Below, in pieces: positions 15,571 to 56,414 of a stretch of DNA of 64,000 nucleotides. A program made the translations under genes and the position numbers. The stretch covers positions 177,630,001 through 177,694,000 of the forward strand of contig NC_091984.1 in NCBI RefSeq assembly GCF_044704955.1, written 5' to 3'. The DNA comes from Pristiophorus japonicus (taxonomy: Eukaryota). The notes below the pieces were generated by a model that made no database searches, was not told the DNA's origin, and was given only the letters and a program-made list of their open reading frames with translations. Position 1 is the first letter of the stretch. Every line of letters begins with the position of its first letter.

Positions 15571-15969
15571 CTACACTTGGAGTACTGTGAACAGTTTAGT
15601 CTCCATGATATAAAAAGGATACAAAATGCACTGGAGTGGTGCAAAAAAAGATTTACTAGAATGATACCAGAACTGAGAGGTGATATGTATCAGGAAAGAT
15701 TGAACACGATATGGCTCTTTCCTCGAGGTAGAGGTGTTTATGATTATGATAGGGTAGGTGTAGAGAATCTGTTTCCACTTGCGAGTGACACCAGAACTAG
15801 AAACCATAAATATAAGATAGTCACGAATGAATTCAATAGGCAATTCAGGAAAAATGTCTTCACCCAGAGTAGTTAGAATGTGGAATTGGCAATCACAAGG
15901 AGTAGTTAAGACACATAAAGCATTTAAGGGGAAGCTCGATAAGCACATGAGGGAGAAAGGAATAGGATA
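15571..15969 (+). mobile_element. Older CR1-type 3' fragment, split by the long CR1 (resumes at ~20727-20835)
   Basis: Reads LEYCEQF..FRKNVFTQ. The sequence gggagaaaggaataggat continues as gatatattaatggggttag after 20726, matching copies at ~9375 and ~28420. Confidence 0.7.
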
Positions 15970-16065
15970 GAAACATAGAAACATAGAAAATAGGTGCAGG
16001 AGTAGGCCATTCGGCCCTTCGAGCCTGCACCGCCATTCAATGAGCTCATGGCTGAACATGCAACT

Positions 16066-19057
16066 TCAGTACCCCATTCCTGCTTTCTCGCCATACCCCT
16101 TGATCCCCCTAGTAGTAAGGACTTCATCTAACTCCTTTTTGAATATATTTAGTGAATTGGCCTCAACAACTTTCTGTGGTAGAGAATTCCACAGGTTCAC
16201 CACTCTCTGGGTGAAGAGGTTTCTCCTCATCTCGGTCCTAAATGGCTTACCCCTTATCCTTAGACTGTGACCCTTGGTTCTGGACTTCCCCAACATTGGG
16301 AACATTCTTCCTGCATCTAACCTGTCTGAACCCATCAGAATTTTAAACGTTTCTATGAGGTCCCCTCTCATTCTTCTGAACTCCAGTGAATACAAGCCCA
16401 GTTGATCCAATCTTTCTTGATAGGTCAGTCCCGCCATCCCGGGAATCAGTCTGGTGAACCTTCGCTGTACTCCCTCAATAGCAAGAATGTCCTTCGTCAA
16501 GTTAGAAGACCAAAACTGTACACAATACTCCAGGTGTGGCCTCACCAAGGCCCTGTACAACTGTAGCAACACCTCCCTGCCCCTGTACTCAAATCCCCTC
16601 GCTATGAAGGCCAACATGCCATTTGCTTTCTTAACCGCCTGCTGTACCTGCATGCCAACCTTCAATGACTGATGTACCATGACACCCAGGTCTCGTTGCA
16701 CCTCCCCTTTTCCTAATCTGTCACCATTCAGATAATAGTCTGTCTCTCTGTTTTTACCACCAAAGTGGATAACCTCACATTTATCCACATTATATTTCAT
16801 CTGCCATGCATTTGCCCACTCACCTAACCTATCCAAGTCACTCTGCAGCCTCATAGCATCCTCCTCGCAGCTCACACTGCCACCCAACTTAGTGTCATCC
16901 GCAAATTTGGAGATACTACATTTAATCCCCTCGTCTAAATCATTAATGTACAGTGTAAACAGCTGGGGCCCCAGCACAGAACCTTGCGGTACTCCACTAG
17001 TCACTGCCTACCATTCTGAAAAGTACCCATTTACTCCTACTCTTTGCTTCCTGTCTGACAACCAGTTCTCAATCCACGTCAGCACACTGCACACTACCCC
17101 CAATCCCATGTGCTTTAACTTTGCACATTAATCTCTTGTGTGGGACCTTGTCGAAAGCCTTTTGAAAGTCCAAATATACCACATCAACTGGTTCTCCCTT
17201 GTCCACTCTACTGGAAACATCCTCAAAAAATTCCAGAAGTTGTGTCAAGCATGATTTTCCTTTCACAAATCCATGCTGACTTGGACCTATCATGTCACCT
17301 CTTTCCAAATGCGCTGCTATGACATCCTTAATAATTGATTCCATCATTTTACCCACTACTGAGGTCAGGCTGACCGGTCTACAATTCCCTGTTTTCTCTC
17401 TCCCTCCTTTTTTAAAAAGTGGGGTTACATTGGCTACCCTCCACTCCATAGGAACTGATCCAGAGTCAATGGAATGTTGGAAAATGACTGTCAATGCATC
17501 CGCTATTTCCAAGACCACCTCCTTAAGTACTCTGGGATGCAGTCCATCAGGCCCTTGGGATTTATCGGCATTCAATCCCATCAATTTCCCCAACATAATT
17601 TCCCGACTAATAAGGATTTCCCTCAGTTCCTCCTCCTTACTAGACCCTCTGACCCCATTTATATCCGGAAGGTTGTTTGTGTCCTCCTTAATGAATACCG
17701 AACCAAAGTACTTGTTCAATTGGTCTGCCATTTCTTTGTTCCCCGTTATGACTTCCCCTGATTCTGACTGCAGGGGACCTACGTTTGTCTTTACTAACCT
17801 TTTTCTCTTTACATATCTATAGAAACTTTTGCAATCCGTCTTAATGTTCCCTGCAAGCTTCTTCTCGTACTCCATTTTCCCTGCCCTAATCAAACCCTTT
17901 GTCCTCCTCTGCTGAGTTCTAAATTTCTCCCAGTCCCCGGGTTCACTGCTATTTCTGGCCAATTTGTATGCCACTTCCTTGGCTTTAATACTATCCCTGA
18001 TTTCCCTTGATAGCCACGGTTGAGCCACCTTCCCTTTTTTATGTTTACGCCAGACAGGAATGTACAATTGTTGTAGTTCATCCATGCGGTCTCTAAATGT
18101 CTGCCATTGCCCATCCACAATCAACCCCTTAACTATCATTCGCCAATCTATCCTAGCCAATTCATGCCTCATACCTTCAAAGTTACCCTTCTTTAAGTTC
18201 TGGACCATGGTCTCTGAATTAACTGTTTCATTCTCCATCCTAATGCAGAATTCCACCATATTATGGTCACTCTTCCCCAAGGGGCCTCGCACAACGAGAT
18301 TGCTAATTAATCCTCTCTCATTACACAACACCCAGTCTAAGATGGCCTCCCCCCTAGTTGGTTCCTCGACATATTGGTCTAGAAAACCATCCCTTATGCA
18401 CTCCAGGAAATCCTCCTCCACCGTATTGCTTCCAGTTTGGTTAGCCCAATCTATGTGCATATTAAAGTCATCCATTATAACTGCAGCACCTTTATTGCAT
18501 GCACCCCTAATTACCTGTTTGATGCCCTCCCCAACATTACTATTACTGTTTGGAGGTCTGTACACAACTCCCACTAACGTTTTTTGCCCTTTGGTGTTCT
18601 GCAGCTCTACCCATATAGATTCCACATCATCCAAGCTAATGTCCTTCCTAACTGTTGCATTAATCTCCTCTTTAACCAGCAATGCTACCCCACCTCCTTT
18701 TCCTTTTGTTCTATCCTTCCTGAATGTTGAATACCCCTGGATGTTGAGTTCCCAGCCCTGATCATCCTGGAGCCACATCTCTGTAATCCCAATCCTATCA
18801 TATTTGTTAACATCTATTTGCACAGTTAATTCATCCACTTTATTACGGATACTCCTTGCATTAAGACACAAAGACTTCAGGATTGTTTTTTTAACACCCT
18901 TTGTCCTTTTAGAATTTTGCTGTACAGTGGCCCTTTTTATTCTTTGCCTTGGGTTTCTCTGCCCTCCACTTTTCCTCATCTCCTTTCTGTCTTTTGCTTT
19001 TTTCTCCTTTTTGTTTCCCTCTGTCTCCCTGCATTGGTTCCCATCCCCCTGCCACAT
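16066..19057 (-). pseudogene. CR1 ORF2 (APE endonuclease + reverse transcriptase), broken by a 7-nt duplication and one nonsense codon
   Basis: Forms 662-aa and 312-aa ORFs with LNARS, GVVYRPP, SDHN, PQGS and FADD motifs. gcacact is duplicated at 17082-17095, and there is a TAG near 17009. Confidence 0.93.
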
Positions 19058-20169: not shown

Positions 20170-20726
20170 CCACGCCTCTCCACGCACCTCTCGCCAACTC
20201 TGGGCCTCGGATTCCCTGCTGTGCCTTTTATAGGCCTCTCTCCGAAGTCCCGACTGCCTCTCCATGCACCTCTCGCCGACTCTGGGCCCCGGACTCTCTG
20301 CTGTGCCTTTTATAGGCCTCTCTCCGAAGTCCCGACTGCCTCTCCACGCACCTCTCGTCGACTCTGGGCCCCGGACTCCCTGCTGTGCCTTTTATAGGCC
20401 TCTCTCCGAAGTCCCGACTGCCTCTCCACGCACCTACTCGACGCTGGGCCCCGGACTCCCTGCTGTGCCTTTTATAGGCCTCTCTCCGAAGTCCCGACTG
20501 CCTCTCCACGCACCTCCTCGACGCTGGGCCCCGGACTCCCTGCTGTGCCTTTTATAGGCCTCTCTCCGAAGTCCCAACTGCCTCTCCACGCACCTCCTCG
20601 ACGCTGGGCCCCGGCTCCCTGCTGTGCCTTTTATAGGCCTCTCTCTGAAGTCCCGACTGCCTCTCCAAGCACCTCCTCGACGCTGGGCCCTGGACTCCCT
20701 GCTGTGCCTTTTATAGGCCTCTCACC
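20170..20726 (-). repeat. Seven ~80-bp tandem monomers forming the CR1 5' end, each with a TATA-like box
   Basis: gctgtgccttttataggcc recurs at 20218, 20300, 20382, 20462, 20542, 20621 and 20701. Confidence 0.93.
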
Positions 20727-21161
20727 GATATATTAATGGGGGTTAGAAGGGGGAGAAAGTTCATCTGGAGAATAATCACAGCGTGGACTTGTTGGGCTCA
20801 GTGGCCTGTTTCTGAGCTTTGAATACTTTGTAATAATTTGTTGTACTTTGTAATAGAAGTGCTACTCTGAGAGCAATACCACTAGCCTAATGGCATGATC
20901 AAAAATGTTAACTCTGTTTTTATCAACTCTTTGCAGTTAGTTCAATTATGATTTAATGTCACATTAATAATAAATTAAGCATTGATTTTTTTAAAAAACT
21001 GCTTTTGTTTTTAGATCTAAAGATTCGACTTATTACTCGGAAGAAAGGAAGTAAATGTGAAAACATTTCATGGAAATTATCTGGTATTCTGCAGTGATTG
21101 TAAACAGATGATTTGTGTTCCAGAGGGTGGCGCTGATACACAGCAGAACTGAAAATAAGTA

Positions 21162-28470: not shown

Positions 28471-29171
28471 ATGGCCTGGATTTTGCGGTCAGTACAGAAG
28501 GGCTAGCACGCGCTGCTGACCCCGAAGGAAGCTGGCCACAAAGATTTAGTGAACTCTGTGGCTCAATTTCCCCTATGACAATGTCAATTGCATTCTAGCG
28601 TCATCTATAGGGGATCTGTGGCATCCCAGAACAGTGAATTGATCAAGCAGGCTGAGCAGCCAATCAGATTGAAGCATTCTCACAGACCACAAACCAGGAA
28701 CTAAAAAAAAACAGGAACCAATTGATTATCATTCACTTTTTAATAATTTTACAGAGAGCAAAATAAAGATGGGGACATACACTGGGATTAAGGTAGAAGC
28801 TGAAATATTAAAAACAATCAATTTTTTTTTACTATTTTAAAAATCTATGGAATTATCATCAGGAAATGGAAGCAATGACACTCCAGAATTATTAACAAGT
28901 TTTTCAGAGCCTGAGTTGTTGTTCAGCAGTAATTATGACTGAGTACTCTGTTAAAAACTCAGTTACATCTCAGTCAACTTTTTCAATGGTTTCAACAATA
29001 AGAATGTTGCGCAAAAAGTTGAAGTTCATGCCAAATCAGTGATTTCTAATGATTGCACATGTGAAAACTGCAACAGTGCAGCCTATGGAGGAGCAGGGTA
29101 TCACTGACAGCAGCTTCTGGATTTCCACATTTAACTGCGCAAGTGCACACGCTAGAAGTTGCTGTCAATTT
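28471..29171. mobile_element. Non-autonomous DNA transposon split by the LTR element (resumes at 37467-37532)
   Basis: Imperfect inverted ends ggcctggattttgcggt and actgtaaaccctgggcc lie either side of the provirus. Confidence 0.5.
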
Positions 29172-29778
29172 TGTAAGAATAAAAGTGTTTATTAATGATT
29201 AAAATTGATTATGTGTATGTATAAATATTAAAAAATCTGTAGATTAACGGAAAGGCCTGTTTGTGTTGAGAAGCTCACAGATTGCCAACATGGGCTAAGT
29301 TTTGTAAGAAACAAATTGAAAGCCCCCAGAACTGCTGCGTGGGTTTTGTGTATTGGAAAGCCATTTAAACTAATCAGAGATGGCTGAGCCAGAACAGATA
29401 ACCATATGTGTGAGGAGAGCCAATAAGCTGCTGCCCTGGAACCAAAGTCTAATCGGGAGACTTTGAGGACAATGGCCTTGAAGAATATAAAAAACGCAAG
29501 CCATCTCTTCTCTCCCTGCTGGACACACGGCAAAAGGCCTCCTGTTGAAGACCAGCCAAATCAGCATGCCGTGTGTTCAAACCAGCCAGCAAAAGGGGAG
29601 TAACGTATATCACTTTTATTATAACCTCATTGTATCTCTGTTGTAACTAAGGTAGATCTATAGGATATTTGACGAATGCTGTTAAATGCATGTGTGTGTT
29701 TTTAATAAATTGTGCAATTGTTCTGAAAGAATCGTCTCACTGTCAAATGTAAGCCCAGAGAAATTCAGAAATCTTACA
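29172..29778 (+). repeat. 5' LTR (607 bp)
   Basis: tgtaag...cttaca, with TATA-like aatataaaaa near 29484 and aataaa near 29704. Direct repeat of 36842-37466. Confidence 0.95.
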
Positions 29779-29782
29779 AAAT

Positions 29783-29800
29783 TGGTGGAGAATGCGGGCA
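29783..29800 (+). promoter_or_regulatory. Primer-binding site, tRNA-Ala type
   Basis: TGGTGGAGAATGCGGGCA (18 nt) is complementary to the vertebrate tRNA-Ala 3' end TGCCCGCATTCTCCACCA. It lies 4 nt after the LTR. Confidence 0.85.
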
Positions 29801-30008
29801 ACTGGCGAGACAGCTTTTTGATGATTATTTTGAACAAGTGGAAATCTCGGGAGTTGCGATTCTAACCTGTGTTGCGATTATAATTGAAACAATTAAACGG
29901 ATCGGGAGTTGCGTCTTAGGGGAGCACTCGTCTCGATAGTTGTAACTGTTTAAGTAATGTGGGTTGGAACTGTTTAAATGGGGACCCACCAATAATTTAA
30001 GACACAGG

Positions 30009-32781
30009 ATGACGGGATCAGTCATGGACAGAAAGCCAACAATAAAAAGTAATGTTGAGCTAGTTTATCAGGAGAGGTTGTCCAAGACACAGAAGAGTTA
30101 AGGGCACAGGCACAGCACGAGGGCGGACCTGCCTCATTTGGGGAGATGTACATTAATGATTTAGACGAGGGGATTAAATGCAGTATCTCCAAATTTGCGG
30201 ATGATACTAAGTTGGGTGGCAGTGTGAGCTGCGAGGAGGATGCTATTAGGCTGCAGAGTGACTTGGATAGGTTAGGTGAGTGGGCAAATGCATGGCAGAT
30301 GAAGTATAATGTGGATAAATGTGAGGTTATCCACTTTGGTGGTAAAAACAGAGAGACAGACTATTATCTGAATGGTGACAGATTAGGAAAAGGGAAGGTG
30401 CAACGAGACCTGGGTGTCATGGTACATCAGTCATTGAAGGTTGGCATGCAGGTACAGCAGGCGGTTAAGAAAGCAAATGGCATGTTGGCCTTCATAGCGA
30501 GGGGATTTGAATACATGGGCAGGGAGGTGTTGCTACAGTTGTACAGGGCCTTGGTGAGGCCACACCTGGAGTATTGTGTACAGTTTTGGTCTCCTAACTT
30601 GAGGAAGGACATTCTTGCTATTGAGGGAGTGCAGCGAAGGTTCACCAGACTGATTCCCGGGATGGCGGGACTGACCTATCAAGAAAGATTGGATCAACTG
30701 GGCTTGTATTCACTGGAGTTCAGAAGAATGAGAGGGGACCTCATAGAAACGTTTAAAATTCTGACGGGTTTAGACAGGTTAGATGCAGAAAGAATGCTCC
30801 CAATGTTGGGGAAGTCCAGAACCAGGGGTCACAGTCTGAGGATAAGGGGTAAGCCATTTAGGACCGAGATGAGGAGAAACTTCTTCACCCAGAGAGTGGT
30901 GAACCTGTGGAATTCTCTACCACAGAAAGTAGTTGAGGCCAATTCACTAAATATATTCAAAAGGGAGTTAGATGAAGTCCTTACTACTCGGGGGATCAAG
31001 GGTTATGGCGAGAAAGCAGGAAGGGGGTACTGAAGTTTCATGTTCAGCCATGAACTCATTGAATGGCGGTGCAGGCTAGAAGGGCTGAATGGCCTGCTCC
31101 TGCACCTATTTTCTATGTTTCTATGTTTCTATGGTGAGAATTACACAGGAGAGAGTAGATAGGGGAGAGTTGAGATCAAAACGGGCAGTTTCGTGGCACT
31201 TAGCGTTTTTTATTGTGCCAGGAGAGATGAGGAATTAATGAGGCAAGACGCCAAAGTGATACAAGATTTGAAAAAATTGCAAGTAAGAGAGATTTAGTTA
31301 AAAGGAAGATTGAAGGTATAAAACAAAAGGAAGAAGGCCTCCAACTTGTGAAGCAGTTAAAAAAGAGGGAGAAATACAGCAGTTAAGACAAGAAATTGGC
31401 CACTGTAACCACAGTATTAAGCAATTAGAAAGAGGGGCCGAAGAGGCAGCTTTACGGGTCAGCAACAAAGTATTTCAAACCGCAGCCATTGTTGAAGCAA
31501 ATGAAAACAAATTAGAGTTAAAAAAATATAAATTGGAAAACTTGAGGCTCCAACAAGAGATAGAAGATGCTAGAACTGCATTAAGAGAAGTCATTAAGAA
31601 GCCACATAGGGAAGCAGAAATAACGAGGCTAAAAAGTAAGTTAGTGGAGCAGCAGGCCCTAGTATCCGCAGTAACACGGGGAGCCATAACAGAGATAGCA
31701 GAAGGGGAAAAGGGAGAAACAGATTGAGAAGAGGAAGGAAGTCAGTATAATTCCCAGGAGAGTGGTGTAGAATGAGATACCTTGGAGACACAAGAGCCAA
31801 CTGTAGCCGTAATAACCACTTCTTCATGACGTAATGCACACGGCAACATCACCAGTAACCATACCGACTCACGGCCCATATCTGGTGCTGACGCCACGCC
31901 GTGTAGCCACGAGTTGGGGCCCATTAATGATGGGGACGACCCACTGGAAGTTAATAGGAGGTGGTCAAATTTTAGGAGGGGTCACCCTGAGTTGGAAGAG
32001 AGAGACTTAACTCGAGTCCTCTTCTTGGCCTGTTCCACTTCACTAAAAGATAATCTGCCAGAAGCAGTACTCCGGGCTGCCGCAGCGGCCGATGTACTCA
32101 TGACCGAGATCCTAAACCATTTAGGGATCCGAAACTTGAACTTAGTGACTCTGCTTAATCAGACCAAGCAGCACCCAGAAGAGACCCCTGGAGCCTTCAG
32201 TAATCACGTGTACGATATCTATAAACGTATGCAGAACCAGGCACCTGCAAATGCTACAGCAAGAAAGAATCAGGAACAATTTAAATCTACGTTCCTGACC
32301 CAACTCCACCCTTTAGTTAAAACCACCCTGGGAATAGCCATGAGGCCCACCAATCAGTGGACAGATATCGAGACCAATGCTCAAATAGCCTGGGAGATGG
32401 TAAAAGACCAGTTAAAGGGGAAGTCACCACCAACTGCAAATAAACCAGTGTCAATGGTGGAGGGATCTCAAAACAACCCCTTTAAAGGGACAATGCTTTA
32501 ATTGTAAGATGGTAGCCCACCTAGCAAAAGATTGCAGCAGACCCAGACCAGCACCGAACCATGATGCAACGCATAAATATCTCCCGAGGGATGAATCCAA
32601 GCCCTGTGGGACAGATCAAAGATTGGATAAATTGATAACCCTTATACAAACCCAAATTGCCACAAATTATTTACTGGTGTACGTAATCAACAATGCACAC
32701 TCATTAGAGACCCATTCCAGGATCGACCCTATGACAGAGTTCGGCCCCCAAAGATTGGTCGGAAGTGGAGTTCCGACGTGA
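30009..32781 (+). pseudogene. gag: gag remnant: N-terminal coiled-coil region, capsid-like domain, CCHC zinc knuckle
   Basis: Coiled-coil-like ENLRLQQEIEDARTALRE..RLKSKLVEQQ; MHR-like TKQHPEETPGAF; C-F-N-C..HLAKDC at ~32495-32535. Interrupted by a CR1. Confidence 0.7.
30147..31132 (+). mobile_element. Young 5'-truncated CR1 nested in the provirus gag region
   Basis: A 295-aa open RT C-terminus nearly identical to 16066-17004; tail ttctatgtttctatgtttctat. Confidence 0.95.
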
Positions 32782-35700
32782 TGGTAGCGGGAGACCAGTA
32801 GTCCTTGTTGTCTTAAAAGGGGGCAGGCATATGCTTATCGATACTGGCTCAGCCGTTACCATCATCCACACCCCATACCCTGAATGCCATGCGGCGGTGG
32901 ACAAGGGTTATATGACTCTTAAAGGGTTTAACGGTGATACAACCACCGCGTATACAGGGAAGGCCACTGAACTTCAGTTGGGAGGCCTCACCTGTAACGT
33001 CCTAGCACCTATGCTGATGACTATCCCGGTCGGAAGGAGAATGTTAGGGACTGATGTGTTGGATCAGTATGGCGCGGTGATCGATTAGAATCAGGACTGT
33101 GTTTGGATGGGATTGGGAGATAAGGCAGGAGTGATAGAAATTTCAGATGCTCACTCGGTTTTTGCTATTAAAAAGCCATCTGAGTACGACGCTCCAGGGA
33201 GCGAAAATGAAGCTGTGGCGAAATTAATTCGGGAACACCTAGCGGTGTTTGCCACATGCAAGCCTGACTGTGGAAAAATGTCAGGCGAGGAATCTATTGA
33301 GGGACCCCTCCACTTATTCACTAAACAGTACCCCATCCCAAGGGAGAGTCACCTTTACATCCGAGATACCACAAAATCCCGAATCGAGCAGGATGTTCTT
33401 AGGACAAGCACTTTCACAACCAAGTCACCTGCATGGCCGGTTAAAAAGCCTGATAGCAGCTGGCGACAGACTATTGATTACAGAAAGTTAAATTCTGTAA
33501 CACCAGCCTGCTCACCGGTAGTAAGAGAAACTCCTACCATATTATCTCAAATTCCTGCCGGTTCCAAATACTTCTCGACCCAGAAGCCGATGGATTCTGG
33601 AGTATCCCTGTTAAAGGGGAAGACCAGTACAAATTTGCATTCGCATTTGAGGACCAGAGCTACACCTGGACATGCTTGCTTCAAAGGTTCCACAATGCCC
33701 CTGCAATTTTAAAAATACTTTTCTCGCCCTACCTGCTTGCTGCAGTATGTAGACGGCCTACTGCTGGCAACCGACAGCATGGAGGAGCATCTGTCGCTTT
33801 TGCACGAACTTTTGACATTGTTGGCTCAGGCAGGACTAAAGGTGAATCTCTGTAAGGCTCAATTAGTAAAAGAACAGGTCACCTTTCTAGGAGTGTCCAT
33901 TTCTCCAGAGGGATCATCATCCCCTGACTCTCACAAAGTGGTGATAATACAGCGACTGTCATTACCCACTTCAAAAACAACCTTACGATCATTCTTGGGT
34001 TTGGTGGGGTACCAAAGGAACTTTATCCCAAGCTTTGCAGAGTGTGCAAAGCCCCTGTATGATTCAATAAAACTGCAGGGTGATGACATACGCCCGGCAT
34101 GGACTGATGCCCACACCCAGTCTGTGGCTAAATTAAAAACTGCAGTGATACAGGCCACATGTCTGATCCCTCCTGACACCATGCAGCCCTTCCATTTGGA
34201 CTCAGGGCCACAGAGCAAAGCATCCCTGCAGTTCTGTGCCAAATGCGAGCTGATCGACGACAGCCCATTGCATACGCGTTTCAAATCCTGCAGGGGGCAG
34301 AAAAGACATATACCGCATGCGAGTGCCACCTACTGGCCGTCTTCTGTCGGTTGATCACTTTACCTTTATTACTGGGCTACAGGCAACAATCCTACACAGT
34401 GGACACACACCTCTGAAACAACTGATGAAACCTGGAGATTCGCTAGTTTCCTCGCAGCGCCTCAGCAAATGGACATTGGAATTTATGGAGACATTGATAC
34501 CATTTCCAAACCCACCACCTTGCTGCCACAATTTCTGATCTATGAGGGGGACCCGCATAAATGTCCGTTACCCTTGAGACCCATCCTGTGCAGAAAGAGC
34601 CCATACAGGATGCCCCAGAGGTCTACATCGATGGGTCCTCATATCACATTGAAGGATCCCCTCACACCGGATATGCTGTGGTATTGCCAGAAAGAACCAT
34701 CCAGCGAAGATGCAACAGACAGTTTTCACAATATGCAGAAAGACTGGGATAAAGTTCCTTTGGTACCCCACCAAACCCAAGAATGATCGTAAGGTTGTTT
34801 TTGAAGTGGGTAATGACAGTCGCTGTATTATCACCACTTTGTGAGAGTCGGGGGATGATGATCCCTCTGGAGAAATGGACACTCCTAGAAAGGTGACCTG
34901 TTCTTTTACTAATTGAGCCTTACAATATGCTGTAAAGGAAACCTTAGATAGACCCTTGAATATTTGGTCTGATAGTGCCTATGCTATAAACACCATGCTC
35001 TCCTTGCCCCATACCACAAAAATGACTATTGTACGATAGATGGCAAGGCCCTGGTCACGCCTGCTCTGGTCATACCTTAAACAGCGATCCCAGCCCTGCT
35101 TCATAGGAAAGGTAGCAGCCCATAGAAAAGGGGGTCCACATAGTGAGGGAAATTCCAGAGCAGCCAAGGATGCAGCGATTGATGGGGAGATAGAGGATAT
35201 AGTTGTTGAGCCCTGCAATGCTGTTAGCAAGGCCTCCCCAACAGATCACCTAGATTTAAAATCCCTGCAGCAGCAATACTGGTCATATGCTGTTGTAAGT
35301 GCCTGGCACGAGGAAGGCAGACCCCTTCCTCAACCAACAGCCTGGGCTCCCAATACCATACTAGCCACCACCCCTGACTCAGATGAGCAGTTGCTGATGT
35401 TCAAAAGAAAGCCAAACACTTTCCCGGTGGTGTGTTCCCCCAGAGGTGGGTCAGTAACTGCATTCCCTCCTCCACTCCCACCCCACAGCAGGGCACTATT
35501 CGGCCCTCGTAACCTTCTATAAGGTAGCATTCACAGCTTGGTGGCCTTCTATGAAGGAAACAATCGACCAATACGTGGCACAATGCCTACCGTGCCTGCA
35601 ACACAATCCTCCAGCATGCACTAACCGAGCCTTGCTTCAAAGCGTACCCCCACCTCAAGGGCCATGGACTCTCCTCCAGATCGACTTAATTGGGCCACTT

Positions 35701-36500
35701 CCATAGGCGCAAGGCTATTTTCAGCATGCCCTAGTGGTGGTGGATCAATTCACTAAATGGATCGAAGCATTCCCCTGCCGCTCCAACATCGCAATCACAG
35801 CAGCCAAAACACTACTGAATCATGTGTTTTGTAGTTGGGGAATACCAGTACAAGTGGACAGTGATCAAGGTTCACACTTTACCGGTAACATTTTTACCCA
35901 TCTGCAGGAAATGTTGGGAATAATACACAAATTACATATTGCTCACCACCCCCAGTCGTCCAGAGGGGTGGAAAGGAGGAACAGGACCCTCAAGTTAATG
36001 TTAAAAAAATTGTGCGTGGACCACCCCACTCAATGAGCTAACATGCTACCAATGTGCTTAATGGCAATGAGGTCCACATCTCTCAGAACAGGGGTCTCCC
36101 CATTTCAGGCCATGACGGGGGAGGCTCATGAGAACAACAGGCCAGCTAACACTAAAGGGATGAGTCCCCTGACAATGAGAACATGTAGTTCCAAGTGGCT
36201 GGAACAAGTGATTGATCTGATCAGTGTGATCTATCGATTTGTGGCCACCAAATTGGGGAAGTCAAAAAGACAAATTAAAAAGTACTTTGACAAGAAAGTG
36301 CGTCCTTTTGAATAAGAGGTGGGAGATTCAGTAATGATTCCAAATTATGGGAAAAAGTATGCTTTTGAGCCCAGGTGATGGGGTCCACATAAGATTATAG
36401 ACCGATTGAATCCCGCGGTTTATTTGATTGAGTTACCGGGAAGAAGGGTGTTAAGTACAAGAAGTGGTTTCACATTAATCAGTTAAAAAGCCAAAGAGTA
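32765..36500 (+). pseudogene. pol: pro-pol remnant: protease, RT, tether, RNase H, integrase
   Basis: Protease LIDTGS. RT SPAWPVKKPDSSWRQTIDYRKLN, GFWSIP and QYVDG (YVDD decayed). Tether HTPL..SSQRLSKW. RNase H VYIDGSS, SDSAYA and KVAAH. Integrase CLPC, QIDLIGP, DSDQGSHF and HPQSSRGVERRNRTLK, plus a GPY/F-like tail. Confidence 0.92.
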
Positions 36501-36828
36501 AATACTGCACTGATTTTGTTTTCCACAGACCATGTTACGTACGGATCCTCACGATTGCCAGGACGACACTGGCCAAGACTGAAGCCGAGGGAAGATGGAG
36601 AAGCGGGAGCTGCAGCATGACACATGAACATCAATCATCAATGTACTTCGAGAAGTGATGGTGCACTGAAGATACGAGAAGGGGAAGAGTCTCTGCTGGA
36701 GATGTTATCGGACTGTTATTAAATCTCCTACACCTTACGAGGTGGGGACCAAGTCAGGCCACCCACTTTTCTTCCTCTCTCTCTCAATGCTTACGATATG
36801 AGTGTGTCAATAAGGATATTTCCCCCTC

Positions 36829-36840
36829 AAGGTGGGGAGT
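36829..36840 (+). promoter_or_regulatory. Polypurine tract
   Basis: aaggtggggagt immediately before the 3' LTR. Confidence 0.7.
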
Positions 36841-36841
36841 T

Positions 36842-37466
36842 TGCAAGAATAAAAGTGTTTATTAAATGATTAAAATTGATTATGTGTATGTATAAATGTT
36901 AAAAGTTGGGATTAATGGAAAGGCCTGTTTGTGTTGAGATAAAATGGAAGCCCACAGATTGCCAGCATGGGCTAAGTTTTGTAAGAAACAAAATGAAAGC
37001 CCCCAGAGCTGCCGCATGGGTTTTGTGTATTGGAAAGCCATTTAAACTAATCAGAGATGGCTGAACCAGGACAGATAGCCACATTTGTGAGGAGAGCCAA
37101 TAAGCTGCTGCCCTGGAACCAAAGTCCAATCGGGAGACTTTGAGGACAGTGGCTTTGAGGAATATAAAAAACGCAAGCCAGGAACTTTTCTCTCTCTTCT
37201 CTCCCTACTGGACACAAGGCAAAAGATCTCTTGTTGAAGACCAACCAAATCAGCATGCTGTGTGTTCAAACCAGCCAGTAAAAGGGGCATAACGTATATT
37301 GCTTATTATAAACTCATTGTATCTCTGTTGTAACTAAGGTAGATCTATAGGATATTTGACGACTGCTGTTAAATGCATGTGTGTGTTTTTAATAAACTGT
37401 GCCAATTGCTCTGAAAGAATCATCCCACTGTCAAATGTAAGCCCAGAGAGATTCAGAAATCCTACA
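36842..37466 (+). repeat. 3' LTR (625 bp)
   Basis: tgcaag...cctaca, colinear with the 5' LTR, with many substitutions and small indels. Confidence 0.95.
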
Positions 37467-38440
37467 GTTTTACACACTAATAATAGCCAACGCTGACAGT
37501 TTCACCACCATTACAACTGTAAACCCTGGGCCTATGTCGTCATTCAGGAAGGATAAATCATTAAAATATGGACTAATCTTACGTCAGTTTTGGGTAACAT
37601 CTAGGTTAGATTTTCAACTTGCCACCTACGTGTGGAACTGGCAATCCAGACAAGCTACTTGTACAAACCTCCTGATTTTCATTTCCACTGATTTCAATGG
37701 GAATAAAAATTGGGGGGTTTCAATAAAGGGTGGCAAATCCACAAGGTCAATCGTACACCCCGGCAGCACTTTGAAAATCTAGTCCGCAATAGAGAATTAA
37801 ATTAAATGAACACTGAGGGGCATGGACTAATCATAGACAGACAGTCAGCACGGATTCATCAAAGTGGGAACGTGTTTCACTAATTGAAGAGAATTTTGTG
37901 AGGAAATCATAGAATGTATAGCTGGTGGATGTAGTATAAATGGATTTTGAGATGGTTTAATGAGGCAAAGACATGGTTACTTTATTATAATCACACTGAT
38001 CAATAACATTTTGCAACATCTCACAGAAATAAAAGATACTAAGCACTTCAATGCGAGTTAGTTAGTTACTTCAACTAATCTCGATGAATTGTTGATTGAA
38101 TATATATGAGGATGTGTTTATTTTATATAAAACCATAACAGCCAGCTTCTTACCCTCAAAGCTCCTCATTTATAATAATTATACTATTAAACAAGCTATA
38201 ATTCAGTGAAAGAAAATATGGCACTGTTTTCAAACAAATGCTGTTTGGCCGGACATGCACATGGACCATACCGACATGACCAAATCCTGTGATATAAAAC
38301 ATGTTTCACAGATTGTGATTATTTGGTTAATTAGCACACTATAAGCAATCAAACATTTTATGCTCAGTACTCATTTGAGGCTCTGATTTGCAAATTCCTT
38401 TGGCAGCTGCTCTTCATTATGTTCTGCTCATAATACATCA

Positions 38441-38573
38441 TCAGATGGCCATTTTTTCACAAATATATTTATACTTGGTAGTGCAATAATCGTCATTCCA
38501 CAAACCTTTAATGGCAAGATGAATGCAATCTTTGGAATTCTTATAATTATCTGGCTGACCTGATCTCCAGAAG
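38441..38573 (-). CDS. Gene B last CRD exon (FWRSGQPDNYKNSKDCIHLAIKGLWNDDYCTTKYKYICEKMAI*)
   Basis: Acceptor ttttgtcactag; QPD, WND and YICEK motifs; stop at 38443-38441. Confidence 0.92.
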
Positions 38574-39149
38574 CTAGTGACAAAAACAAAATACATATAT
38601 GAACCATAGGTATAATCTACCAATTTGAAGCAGGGATACAAAAATGAATAGATAGGGGTGAAAGTCAGTATAAAAATTGTTACTAAAATACTGCTTTAAG
38701 AGTTTTGCCTTCTGAGGGGTAGAATTTCCCTGAAGGTTCTCCCGATTTCCCAACGTAACTTCTTGCCACCAAGTATTCGCGGATGTCGGTGCGCAGGGAG
38801 CCTCTGTTTCAAACAAATTGGCACTTCATGAATAAGTTCAAATAACCCCAAAACGGTGATAATGAATACAACCATTTTCCGACCTTTGTGCCCATCACTT
38901 TCTGCCAACGACCCCCCCCCCCACCGCTTCCCCCACAAACGTCGGTTGAAGTTGGGCGCAGCACCTGATCGGAGATATTCTTTTAAGTGGGTTTAAGGAT
39001 TTGCTGCAAGTGTCTGTTAGTGTGTCAGACCCCTCCCTCTGCCCCATGTAAAAGGGACGTAGTCATAGGATTATACAGACATAATTTAAACAGGGGCCCT
39101 AGTCTATCGCTCTATGGCAGCTCTTCTTGGGTTCCCAGTTTATTTGGTT

Positions 39150-41062: not shown

Positions 41063-41174
41063 TTTGGAGTGCTTGAAAAACTTGTACCATCTTCCCAAGC
41101 CACACACCTTTATTGATCATGTCAATGAGTCCAATCCAATAAAACTGGGAATCTGCTCGATTAACAAGGAAATC
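41063..41174 (-). CDS. Gene B middle CRD exon (DFLVNRADSQFYWIGLIDMINKGVW-/-WEDGTSFSSTP), 1-nt deletion
   Basis: ttacag|GAT and AA|gtaagt splice sites; YWIGL and WEDGT motifs. The exon is 112 nt where 113 is needed. Confidence 0.9.
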
Positions 41175-52543: not shown

Positions 52544-54224
<1,681 letters not shown>

Positions 54225-55169: not shown

Positions 55170-55625
55170 CTGCCTGCCTGCCCCTCCCTCCCCTCCCTCC
55201 CGTTCGCGGGAACATCGCTGAGCTGACTAAGGCTTCCACCTCAAGTGGAAGGCTGCTTGCTGCCTCGTTACTGCCTGCCCCTCCCCTCCCCTCCCTCCCG
55301 TTCGTGGGAACATCGCTGAGCTGACTAAGGCTTCCACCACAAGTGGAAGGCTGCTTGCTGCCTCGTTACTGCCTGCCCCTCCCCTCCCTCCCTCCCATTT
55401 GCGGGAACGTCGCTGAGCTGACTAAGGCTTCCACCTCAAGTTGAAGGCTGCTTGCTGCCTCGTTACTGCTAGCCCCTCGTCTCCCCTCCCTCCCTCCCTC
55501 CCGTTCGCGGGAACATCGCTGAGCTGACTAAGGCTTCCACCTCAAGTGGAAGGCTGCTTGCTGCCTCGTTACTGCCTGCCACTCCCCTCCCTCCCGTTCG
55601 CGGGAACATCGCTGAGCTGACTGAA
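55170..55625. repeat. ~98-bp tandem repeat (5 units) upstream of the transposase stub
   Basis: gaac(a/g)tcgctgagctgact recurs near 55210, 55308, 55405, 55511 and 55604. Confidence 0.9.
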
Positions 55626-56414
55626 GCACTTTCACACAGGTAGGAAGATGGTTTATTTAATCTTTTCTTTGCTTATAAATGTTTATTCAGGTTGGATTTA
55701 TTTGTATAGTATTTGTATAAGTATAAATAAGGATTTATTGTCGAATGTAATGACTTCCCTTCCCCCCCCTCCCCCCACCTCGTTCTGGACGCCTAATTTG
55801 TAACCTGCGCCTGATTTTATAATGTGTAGAACAGGTTTATTCAGTTCTACAAAAATCTTCACTTGCTCCATTCTAAGTTAGTTTGGAGTACGTTTTCACT
55901 GTGGAAACTTTGAAATCAGGCGTCAGTGGCCGGACACGCCCCCTTTTGAAGAAAAAATTCTGTTCTAAAGTAGAACTGTTCTACCTGACTAGAACTGCAG
56001 AAAAAAAATGTGGAGAATTGCGATTTCTAAGATAGTCCGTTCTCCACCAGTTGCTCCTAAAAATCAGGCGCAAATCATGTGGAAACTTGGGCCCAAAGTG
56101 TGTACCCCTAAAACAGACATGAAAGTTACCAATTTCTCCATCAATGATTTCAATGGAAATGTAAATCGGGTTGTTTCTATAATGGCTGGTCGATCCACAA
56201 TGACAGTTTTACACCCAGGCGTAAGTTGAAAATCTATCCCACTGTTGGTAAAATAACCCAAGGCTCCAATGTCCACTTCATTAAATGCGCATAGAAAAAA
56301 ATTAACTGGTGGCCGCTGTCTAAAAACGGTAAGCTATTTACATAAGCAGGACATTAGAAATGTAATAAATTGTGTTCTGGATTACTGAATACAGAATGAT
56401 GACCAACATCTTAC

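What the first reader, a model, noticed from the sequence alone, without database searches (positions are those of the whole stretch)
29172..37466. Retrovirus-like (loki/spuma-type) provirus in an apparent chondrichthyan genome
Seen: pol has a degenerate tether region followed by a separate DGSS-type RNase H. The RT contains GFWSIP and WR.TIDYRKLN. Gag starts with a long coiled-coil and ends in a CCHC knuckle. The PBS is tRNA-Ala, set 4 nt from the LTR. Known: tether plus a second RNase H is typical of retroviruses and their sister lineages rather than ordinary Ty3/Gypsy, and GFW resembles foamy-virus RT. From memory, lokiretroviruses have a coiled-coil (SMC-like) Gag N-terminus and were described mainly outside cartilaginous fish. 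Inference: this may be a poorly described basal retroviral lineage.
Basis: partly seen in the sequence, partly recalled or inferred. Interest (0 to 1): 0.7.

Follow-up and report, generated by a model that had tools for sequence, protein, structure and literature searches.

The report
Decayed snakehead-type retrovirus, not loki
This is an old, broken retrovirus copy from a family with likely about a thousand members in this genome; it likely belongs to an already sampled deep retrovirus group around snakehead retrovirus rather than to loki or foamy viruses, and it likely spread inside cells without an envelope gene.

Summary
In detail: a provirus at 29172-37466 with paired LTRs (K2P 0.069), an 18/18 tRNA-Ala primer site 4 nt behind the LTR, a long-helix Gag with one CCHC knuckle, and PR-RT-tether-RNase H-IN. 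The loki/spuma reading does not hold. In an RT tree the family groups with a Xenopus tropicalis ERV and an elephant-shark-type ERV (99/99), inside Retroviridae (100/99). Joining it to lokiretroviruses (AU p=0.0015) or foamy viruses (p=0.024) is rejected. Its Gag matches snakehead retrovirus (SnRV) Gag best of 27 retroviral genomes. Coiled coil, single knuckle, GFW and an in-frame gag/pol stop are all SnRV traits. Close relatives already stand in Xu et al. 2018 under clade Huo. The family is high-copy (about 1,000 first-look candidates), has no recognisable env, and uses two primer types (Ala, Pro). This copy is dead: frameshifts, stops, a LINE fragment in gag, an inverted RT piece in RNase H. 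Still open: my trees do not join this group to SnRV itself, so it may be a separate deep branch. New member of a known kind; interest 0.3.

The parts
29168..29171 (.). left target-site duplication (ATTT)
   Evidence: 4-bp duplications in 4 of 4 siblings
29172..29778 (+). 5' LTR, TG...CA, TATA-like box 29484, AATAAA 29704
29783..29800 (+). primer binding site, 18/18 to host tRNA-Ala, 4 nt after the LTR
30009..30145 (+). 5' part of gag (start inferred from sibling frames)
30146..31131 (+). inserted LINE 3' fragment (CR1 label recalled); not part of the virus
   Evidence: 97% to window 15967-16952; RVT_1 hit; siblings join across it
31131..32734 (+). rest of gag, broken by stops and frameshifts: long helix (about 31200-31690), capsid-like region, CCHC knuckle 32494-32535, TGA at 32732
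32735..33090 (+). aspartyl protease (DTG)
   Evidence: Pfam gag-asp_proteas E 1.7e-5
33320..34100 (+). reverse transcriptase, frameshifted
34100..34560 (+). tether (degenerate Ty3-type RNase H), frameshifted
34612..35190 (+). second RNase H (DGSS ... DSAY ... KVAAH), interrupted
34742..34927 (-). inverted copy of the element's own RT DNA (33851-34036, 98%), particular to this copy
   Evidence: absent in 18 of 18 siblings that span the site
35440..36490 (+). integrase (HHCC, core, C-terminal part), with stops
   Evidence: Pfam Integrase_H2C2 E 1.8e-12, rve E 2e-11
36500..36820 (+). splice-acceptor-like site (AG at 36528-36529), ATG at 36532 and a short stub where env would be; env origin inferred from position only
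   Evidence: no family hit
36829..36839 (+). polypurine tract, 2 nt before the 3' LTR
36842..37466 (+). 3' LTR
37467..37470 (.). right target-site duplication (GTTT)

Best explanation
This is a dead provirus of a high-copy endogenous retrovirus family that likely belongs to the SnRV-related, class III ('clade Huo') retroviruses and likely multiplied by retrotransposition inside germ cells after losing env. Shown: LTRs, 4-bp target duplication, tRNA-Ala primer site, polypurine tract, gag-pro-pol with dual RNase H, no env-sized gap, many copies sharing the short 3' end, and later damage in this copy. Inferred: genomic RNA was made from the 5' LTR; Gag (long helix, capsid, one CCHC knuckle) formed particles; Pol was made by readthrough of an in-frame UGA-C stop; reverse transcription was primed by tRNA-Ala (tRNA-Pro in other copies); copies spread in a burst and have decayed since, on the order of 70 to 160 million years if the shark rates quoted in two papers apply.
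For: RT tree, 56 rows: two sibling-copy RTs (87-88% DNA identity to the window RT) group with P0005 and Xenopus P0002 at 99/99, within a 14-row amphibian/coelacanth/fish/shark group (94/96), within non-loki retroviruses (100/99); loki 100/100 apart. RNase H and integrase trees give the same Xenopus sister (99/97, 100/99). RT bit scores: Xenopus 329, P0005 268, SnRV 185, loki 172 and 150; foamy 132, Ty3 81, MLV 76. The window's own DNA ranks Xenopus first in 4 of 5 regions, coelacanth in the tether. Gag: best of 27 retroviral genomes is SnRV, E 2e-8, no foamy row (pairwise E 2e-10). SnRV Gag has a coiled-coil hit and one CCHC and ends in an in-frame TAG. Junction stop is TGA in 20 and TAA in 2 of 22 copies; gag runs in the pol frame up to it in 15 of 21. 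Pol end to polypurine tract is 345-452 nt in the 10 of 39 copies where both markers were found; 40 of 40 scored hits cover the 361-nt stub collinearly. First-look candidates: 1091 RT, 2075 LTR, 995 stub. The copy tree is star-like. Xu 2018 S2 Fig lists Xen_tro_ERV2 and Rh_ty_ERV2 next to snakehead retrovirus under clade Huo.
Against: My RT tree does not join the 14-row group to SnRV; SnRV falls in a weak open group with foamy and class I rows (81/94). SnRV+group is merely not rejected (p=0.44), and neither is foamy+group (p=0.28). In the RNase H tree SnRV sides with class I rows (100/94), away from this family. The window integrase scores higher on loki (215-221 bits) than on SnRV (87). The stub has no detectable likeness to any env. 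Copy counts are first-look candidates with only 40 scored each, and the top hits are biased to the closest copies, so rare env-bearing members are not excluded. Readthrough is untested. No RT of the window copy itself is in the trees. Fish foamy-like ERVs, Odin and class II viruses were not in the trees.
Confidence: 0.82

Rival explanations
1. The family and its amphibian, coelacanth and eel relatives form a deep retroviral lineage of their own, not a clade with SnRV; 'SnRV-like/Huo' would then be a grade. It works the same way.
For: 14-row RT group 94/96 is one of three basal branches and excludes SnRV; RNase H lies between the loki/foamy/ERV-L side and the SnRV/class I side; integrase is closer by score to loki than to SnRV.
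Against: SnRV+group not rejected (p=0.44); Gag is closest to SnRV; published trees file these relatives with SnRV; integrase trees do not join the family to loki, so the score may reflect slow evolution.
Confidence: 0.3
2. It is the first lokiretrovirus in a cartilaginous fish.
For: Dual RNase H, WR.TIDYR and NGFW are shared; integrase similarity; six chondrichthyan genomes are unmarked in Wang & Han Table S2, so it would be new.
Against: AU p=0.0015 for family+loki and 0.0125 for group+loki; lacks the loki RT words PLSRWPM and RCPFG; no paramyxovirus-type env and no smc gene; a loki query found only a second non-loki family at 34-36% identity in this genome.
Confidence: 0.02
3. It is a foamy-like (spuma) ERV.
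For: Best PDB match of RT is foamy RT (but the PDB hit list holds no SnRV-type RT); foamy+14-row group not rejected (p=0.28); a catshark foamy-like ERV is described.
Against: Family+foamy rejected (p=0.024); Gag has a CCHC knuckle and no foamy Gag match; gag and pol share a frame across a stop, whereas foamy Pol comes from a spliced RNA (recalled).
Confidence: 0.05
4. The family spread by reinfection or with Env supplied in trans by a helper virus, not purely inside cells.
For: A splice-acceptor-like site and ATG are kept before the stub; related integrase DNA with different 3' ends and LTRs lies in four other coded organisms.
Against: All scored copies share the short 3' end; no env-bearing member was seen among 49 fetched loci.
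Confidence: 0.15

Closest known systems
Xenopus tropicalis ERV Pol (UniRef A0A803K6K2 cluster and P0002; like xe_tr_ERV2 of Xu et al. 2018 by shared RT words, compared by eye)
   Same: 64% RT identity; sister or near-sister in RT, RNase H and integrase trees; same domain order.
   Different: Amphibian host; its Gag, LTR and env were not available to compare.
Elephant-shark SnRV-like ERV (ca_mi_ERV1 of Xu 2018; probably CmiERV lineage I of Han 2015), represented here by unnamed P0005, labelled by eye
   Same: P0005 is the sister of the family in RT (98/83), 54% identity; cartilaginous-fish host for ca_mi_ERV1.
   Different: CmiERVs were defined by having env and are few (three near-complete); this family has no env and many copies.
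Snakehead retrovirus (SnRV; L067/P0129, matched to the published RT row and gag-pol context)
   Same: Gag homology and layout (coiled coil, capsid, one CCHC); in-frame gag/pol stop; NGFWSI and WRLTIDYR; dual RNase H.
   Different: 43% RT identity only; UAG-G versus UGA-C stop; large env and accessory genes; divergent integrase and RNase H; not joined to this family in my trees.
Lokiretroviruses (Wang & Han 2021)
   Same: Dual RNase H; integrase 37-39% identical to the window's.
   Different: Separate RT clade, different RT words, paramyxovirus-like env, optional smc gene.
Foamy viruses
   Same: NGFW in RT, YVDD in siblings, dual RNase H.
   Different: No CCHC-type Gag match, separate clade in all three trees.

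Membership tests
Retroviridae (endogenous) | RT inside the retrovirus clade | tested here: met
   100/99, sibling-copy RTs
Retroviridae (endogenous) | tether plus second RNase H | tested here: met
Retroviridae (endogenous) | LTRs, tRNA primer site, polypurine tract, target duplication | tested here: met
Retroviridae (endogenous) | env gene | tested here: not met
   only a stub of about 350-450 nt without family hit; read as secondary loss, as known for ERV-L-type elements (recalled) and an env-less frog SnRV-like element
SnRV-like / clade Huo | Pol groups with relatives filed under clade Huo by Xu 2018 | tested here: met
   link to the published names made by eye and from the figure's text order
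SnRV-like / clade Huo | RT forms one clade with SnRV itself | tested here: inconclusive
   not recovered, not rejected p=0.44
SnRV-like / clade Huo | SnRV-type Gag and in-frame gag/pol stop | tested here: met
Lokiretrovirus | RT in the loki clade, sister to other retroviruses | tested here: not met
   AU p=0.0015 and 0.0125
Lokiretrovirus | env like paramyxovirus fusion protein | tested here: not met
   no env
Lokiretrovirus | integrase of the loki/CGIN1 type | tested here: inconclusive
   high score, unresolved trees; CGIN1 itself not available
Lokiretrovirus | RNase H groups with loki and foamy | tested here: not met
   weak deep support
Spumaretrovirinae / foamy-like ERVs | RT groups with foamy viruses | tested here: not met
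   AU p=0.024 with five mammalian-type foamy rows; fish foamy-like ERVs absent
Spumaretrovirinae / foamy-like ERVs | Gag without CCHC, Pol from a separate frame (recalled) | tested here: not met
   CCHC present; shared frame
Odin retrotransposons | RT sister to loki, cnidarian hosts | not tested
   no Odin sequence among tool results
Ty3/Gypsy | RT in Metaviridae, single RNase H | tested here: not met

The most novel reading that the evidence does not exclude
This family and its Xenopus, coelacanth, eel and shark relatives are a separate, still unnamed deep branch of Retroviridae that is not one clade with SnRV and keeps an ancestral, loki-like integrase. That would argue against the proposed independent integrase replacement in lokiretroviruses. 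The element would also be a thousand-copy env-less expansion of that branch in a cartilaginous fish, with a switch between tRNA-Ala and tRNA-Pro priming inside one family.
Probability: 0.25. Interest if true: 0.55.

Novelty: new member of a known kind. Interest (0 to 1): 0.3.

Why it matters
As it stands it adds one more family to a group already sampled in frogs, eels, coelacanth and cartilaginous fish. What it adds: scale (about 1,000 candidates, against 100-700 insertions of all ERVs quoted for elephant shark, coelacanth and lamprey in the review), a shared env-less form, and two primer tRNAs. If the wider group proves to be its own basal branch, it would be useful for rooting retroviruses and for testing the claimed repeated swaps of integrase and RNase H.

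Tried and rejected
Capsid fold: AlphaFold model of a sibling Gag had mean pLDDT 49 and Foldseek gave no match at E<=0.001, with retroviral capsids only among weak rows; no verdict. Atlas features pointed to retrotransposon-Gag/PNMA clusters at 0.89-0.92, a lead only. Gag homologue search found nothing. Stub: no Pfam, Atlas or tblastx match. A -1 frameshift at the gag/pol junction was considered because knuckle-to-stop distances vary in frame; rejected because gag runs in the pol frame in 15 of 21 copies. A shared loki integrase was suggested by scores but two trees did not support it. First viral-contig scan found nothing; the alignment scan did. Foamy protease family search in the genome: no match and no control rang, so no verdict. 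ARAGORN found no tRNA in the first four tRNA-Ala pattern loci (0 of 4), but did in an array. Public contigs were too fragmented to confirm the inversion independently. Sequencing-run search: no RNA holder listed. Earlier scan findings: none. Magiorkinis 2012 on env-less ERVs was not held; seen only as a reference title. Tree rows were chosen by hand from about 370 fetched proteins and 27 viral loci: 61, 56, 51, 43 and 37 rows; short or domain-less rows were dropped as printed there. LG+G4 was used, not the mixture model, and five AU tests were run without correction.
Full report
Observation. The stretch 29172-37466 is one provirus on the + strand. Its LTRs (29172-29778, 36842-37466) differ at 39 of 602 aligned positions, K2P 0.069, and are flanked by ATTT/GTTT; siblings show perfect 4-bp duplications in 4 of 4 measured. 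The primer site at 29783-29800 lies 4 nt behind the LTR and matches host tRNA-Ala genes plus CCA at 18 of 18. Pfam finds knuckle, protease, RT, tether and integrase pieces, and sibling frames show tether and a second RNase H in tandem. The Gag N-part folds as one 122-residue helix.

Damage in this copy. All genes carry stops and frameshifts. A LINE 3' fragment fills 30146-31131 inside gag (97% to another copy in the window; siblings join across it). An inverted copy of the element's own RT DNA sits in RNase H at about 34742-34927 (98%) and is absent from 18 of 18 siblings spanning the site. Public contigs could not confirm it independently.

The family. The genome (5.9 Gb) gives 1091, 2075 and 995 first-look candidates for RT, LTR and the 3' stub; 40 were scored each time, at 85-91% identity apart from self. 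These are not exact copy numbers. LTR pairs of eight siblings differ by 0.038-0.107, and the copy tree is star-like with median end branch 0.042: a burst, then decay. With the shark rates assumed in PMC10699275 (0.5e-9) and PMC4422223 (2.2e-10) this copy dates to about 70 or 160 million years; both rates are assumptions. Primer sites are tRNA-Ala in 15 and tRNA-Pro in 9 of 50 sequences examined, the rest lacking a readable site; the two types cluster loosely on the tree (4 changes, shuffled mean 7.4). Integrase DNA at about 85-95% identity lies in four other coded organisms from four studies, three of which do not cover the stub or most of the LTR.

No env. Pol end to polypurine tract is 345-452 nt in the 10 of 39 copies where both markers matched, and 40 of 40 scored hits cover the window's 361-nt stretch end to end. 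It begins with a splice-acceptor-like site and an ATG, where env would start, but matches nothing. That it is an env remnant is inference. The short form was clearly copied as such, which fits intracellular retrotransposition, one of three ERV amplification routes named in PMC10435555.

Placement. An unbroken sibling RT frame finds a Xenopus tropicalis ERV first (64%), then coelacanth, frog, turtle and fish ERVs. Loki rows were recognised by words shared with the Wang & Han alignment; SnRV, foamy, epsilon and gamma rows came from viral contigs. In the 56-row RT tree the family groups with P0005 and Xenopus (99/99) in a 14-row group (94/96) inside non-loki retroviruses (100/99) (same core). AU tests reject family+loki (0.0015), group+loki (0.0125) and family+foamy (0.024), and do not reject group+SnRV (0.44) or group+foamy (0.28). 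RNase H and integrase trees repeat the Xenopus sister and leave deeper nodes weak. Against a neat SnRV filing: SnRV is not joined to the group in any of my trees, and the window integrase scores 215-221 bits on loki versus 87 on SnRV.

Gag and Pol expression. A sibling Gag matches SnRV Gag from capsid to knuckle, the best of 27 retroviral genomes, with no foamy row. SnRV Gag also has a coiled-coil stretch and one CCHC, so the long helix needs no SMC origin; in lokis smc is a separate gene. The gag/pol junction is a stop in the protease frame, TGA in 20 of 22 copies, reached in frame by gag in 15 of 21. SnRV has an in-frame UAG there, and UGA is reported for other aquatic retroviruses. Readthrough is inferred.

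What is known. Xu et al. 2018 define clade Huo as SnRV-related and present in all vertebrate groups. Their data set holds xe_tr_ERV2, ca_mi_ERV1, rh_ty_ERV2, an_ro_ERV1 and le_er_ERV4, whose RT or Gag words match this group by eye; the S2 figure text lists Xen_tro_ERV2 and Rh_ty_ERV2 beside SnRV (branch lines not visible). Han 2015 reported an SnRV-like lineage in elephant shark. An env-less SnRV-like element is reported from a frog transcriptome. [quoted passage not shown] Eight library searches showed no paper on this particular family; subscription papers and repeat databases were not searchable, so it may be catalogued there.

Papers seen. PMC7947760: main text parts 1-3 of 4, supplement parts 1, 70, 71 and search passages (last 18 of 318 pages not held). 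PMC6001957: passages, supplement file 2 whole, file 7 passages. PMC4422223: part 1 of 2 and supplement passages. PMC10699275: parts 1-2 of 4; its supplements were not seen and hold a catshark ERV that I could not compare. PMC4977317, PMC4131045, PMC12193657, PMC13517186, PMC8922424, PMC10435555, PMC9447858, PMC11905727: passages. PMC9040795 (Odin): term search with no hits and the start of the abstract. Recalled, from no call: the CR1 label, foamy Pol splicing and lack of a knuckle, ERV-L env loss.

Host. Not determined here. A second ERV family in this genome shares RT words with the little-skate element le_er_ERV4, which fits a cartilaginous fish but does not prove it.

Verdict. Observation confirmed; loki/spuma reading not supported; a decayed member of a large env-less family in the SnRV-related (Huo) group, confidence 0.82. 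New member of a known kind, interest 0.3. Most novel open reading: a separate basal branch with an ancestral integrase, probability 0.25, interest 0.55.

Noticed in passing
L045-L056 (G000, many contigs): A second, younger-looking ERV family of the same broad RT group: long open pol frames in many of the 53 scored hits, coiled-coil Gag with one knuckle, in-frame TGA-CTA junction, a third primer-site type, and no long env frame in the one 3' region translated. RT words match little-skate le_er_ERV4.
   Followed up: partly
L007, L011, L012, L017, L026, L028, L040, L043, L044: Nine copies of the window's family carry a tRNA-Pro primer site instead of tRNA-Ala; their LTRs are mostly only 67-72% like the window's while pol is 83-89% alike.
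   Followed up: partly
window 38441-38692 (-) and near 41138 (-): C-type lectin domain exon (Pfam E 2.6e-6) ending about 1 kb from the 3' LTR on the opposite strand; a second lectin-like piece upstream.
   Followed up: no
G000:C1:476.18-476.99 Mb; L025: Long tandem arrays of tRNA-Ala genes (423 pattern matches genome-wide; ARAGORN); tRNA-Pro pattern has 709 matches, many evenly spaced.
   Followed up: no
L014 and L016 (G000:C3, about 0.5 Mb apart): Near-identical proviruses with the same nested LINE pieces: a segmental duplication or assembly duplicate.
   Followed up: no
L001, L003, L013, L014, L057, L064 and others: The same LINE 3' fragment family has inserted into many provirus copies at different places.
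   Followed up: no
window 35300-37466 against runs X9, X11, X14: Three other coded organisms share integrase and polypurine-tract DNA but diverge in the stub and LTR; they may hold forms with a longer 3' gene.
   Followed up: no
window 20203-20728, 54024-54188, 55174-55627: Tandem repeats with units of about 80, 33 and 98 nt.
   Followed up: no
P0006, P0007, P0009, P0121, P0122: ERV Pol proteins of this group are annotated 'protein NYNRIN-like', a hint that the mammalian NYNRIN/CGIN1 integrase came from a related ERV.
   Followed up: no
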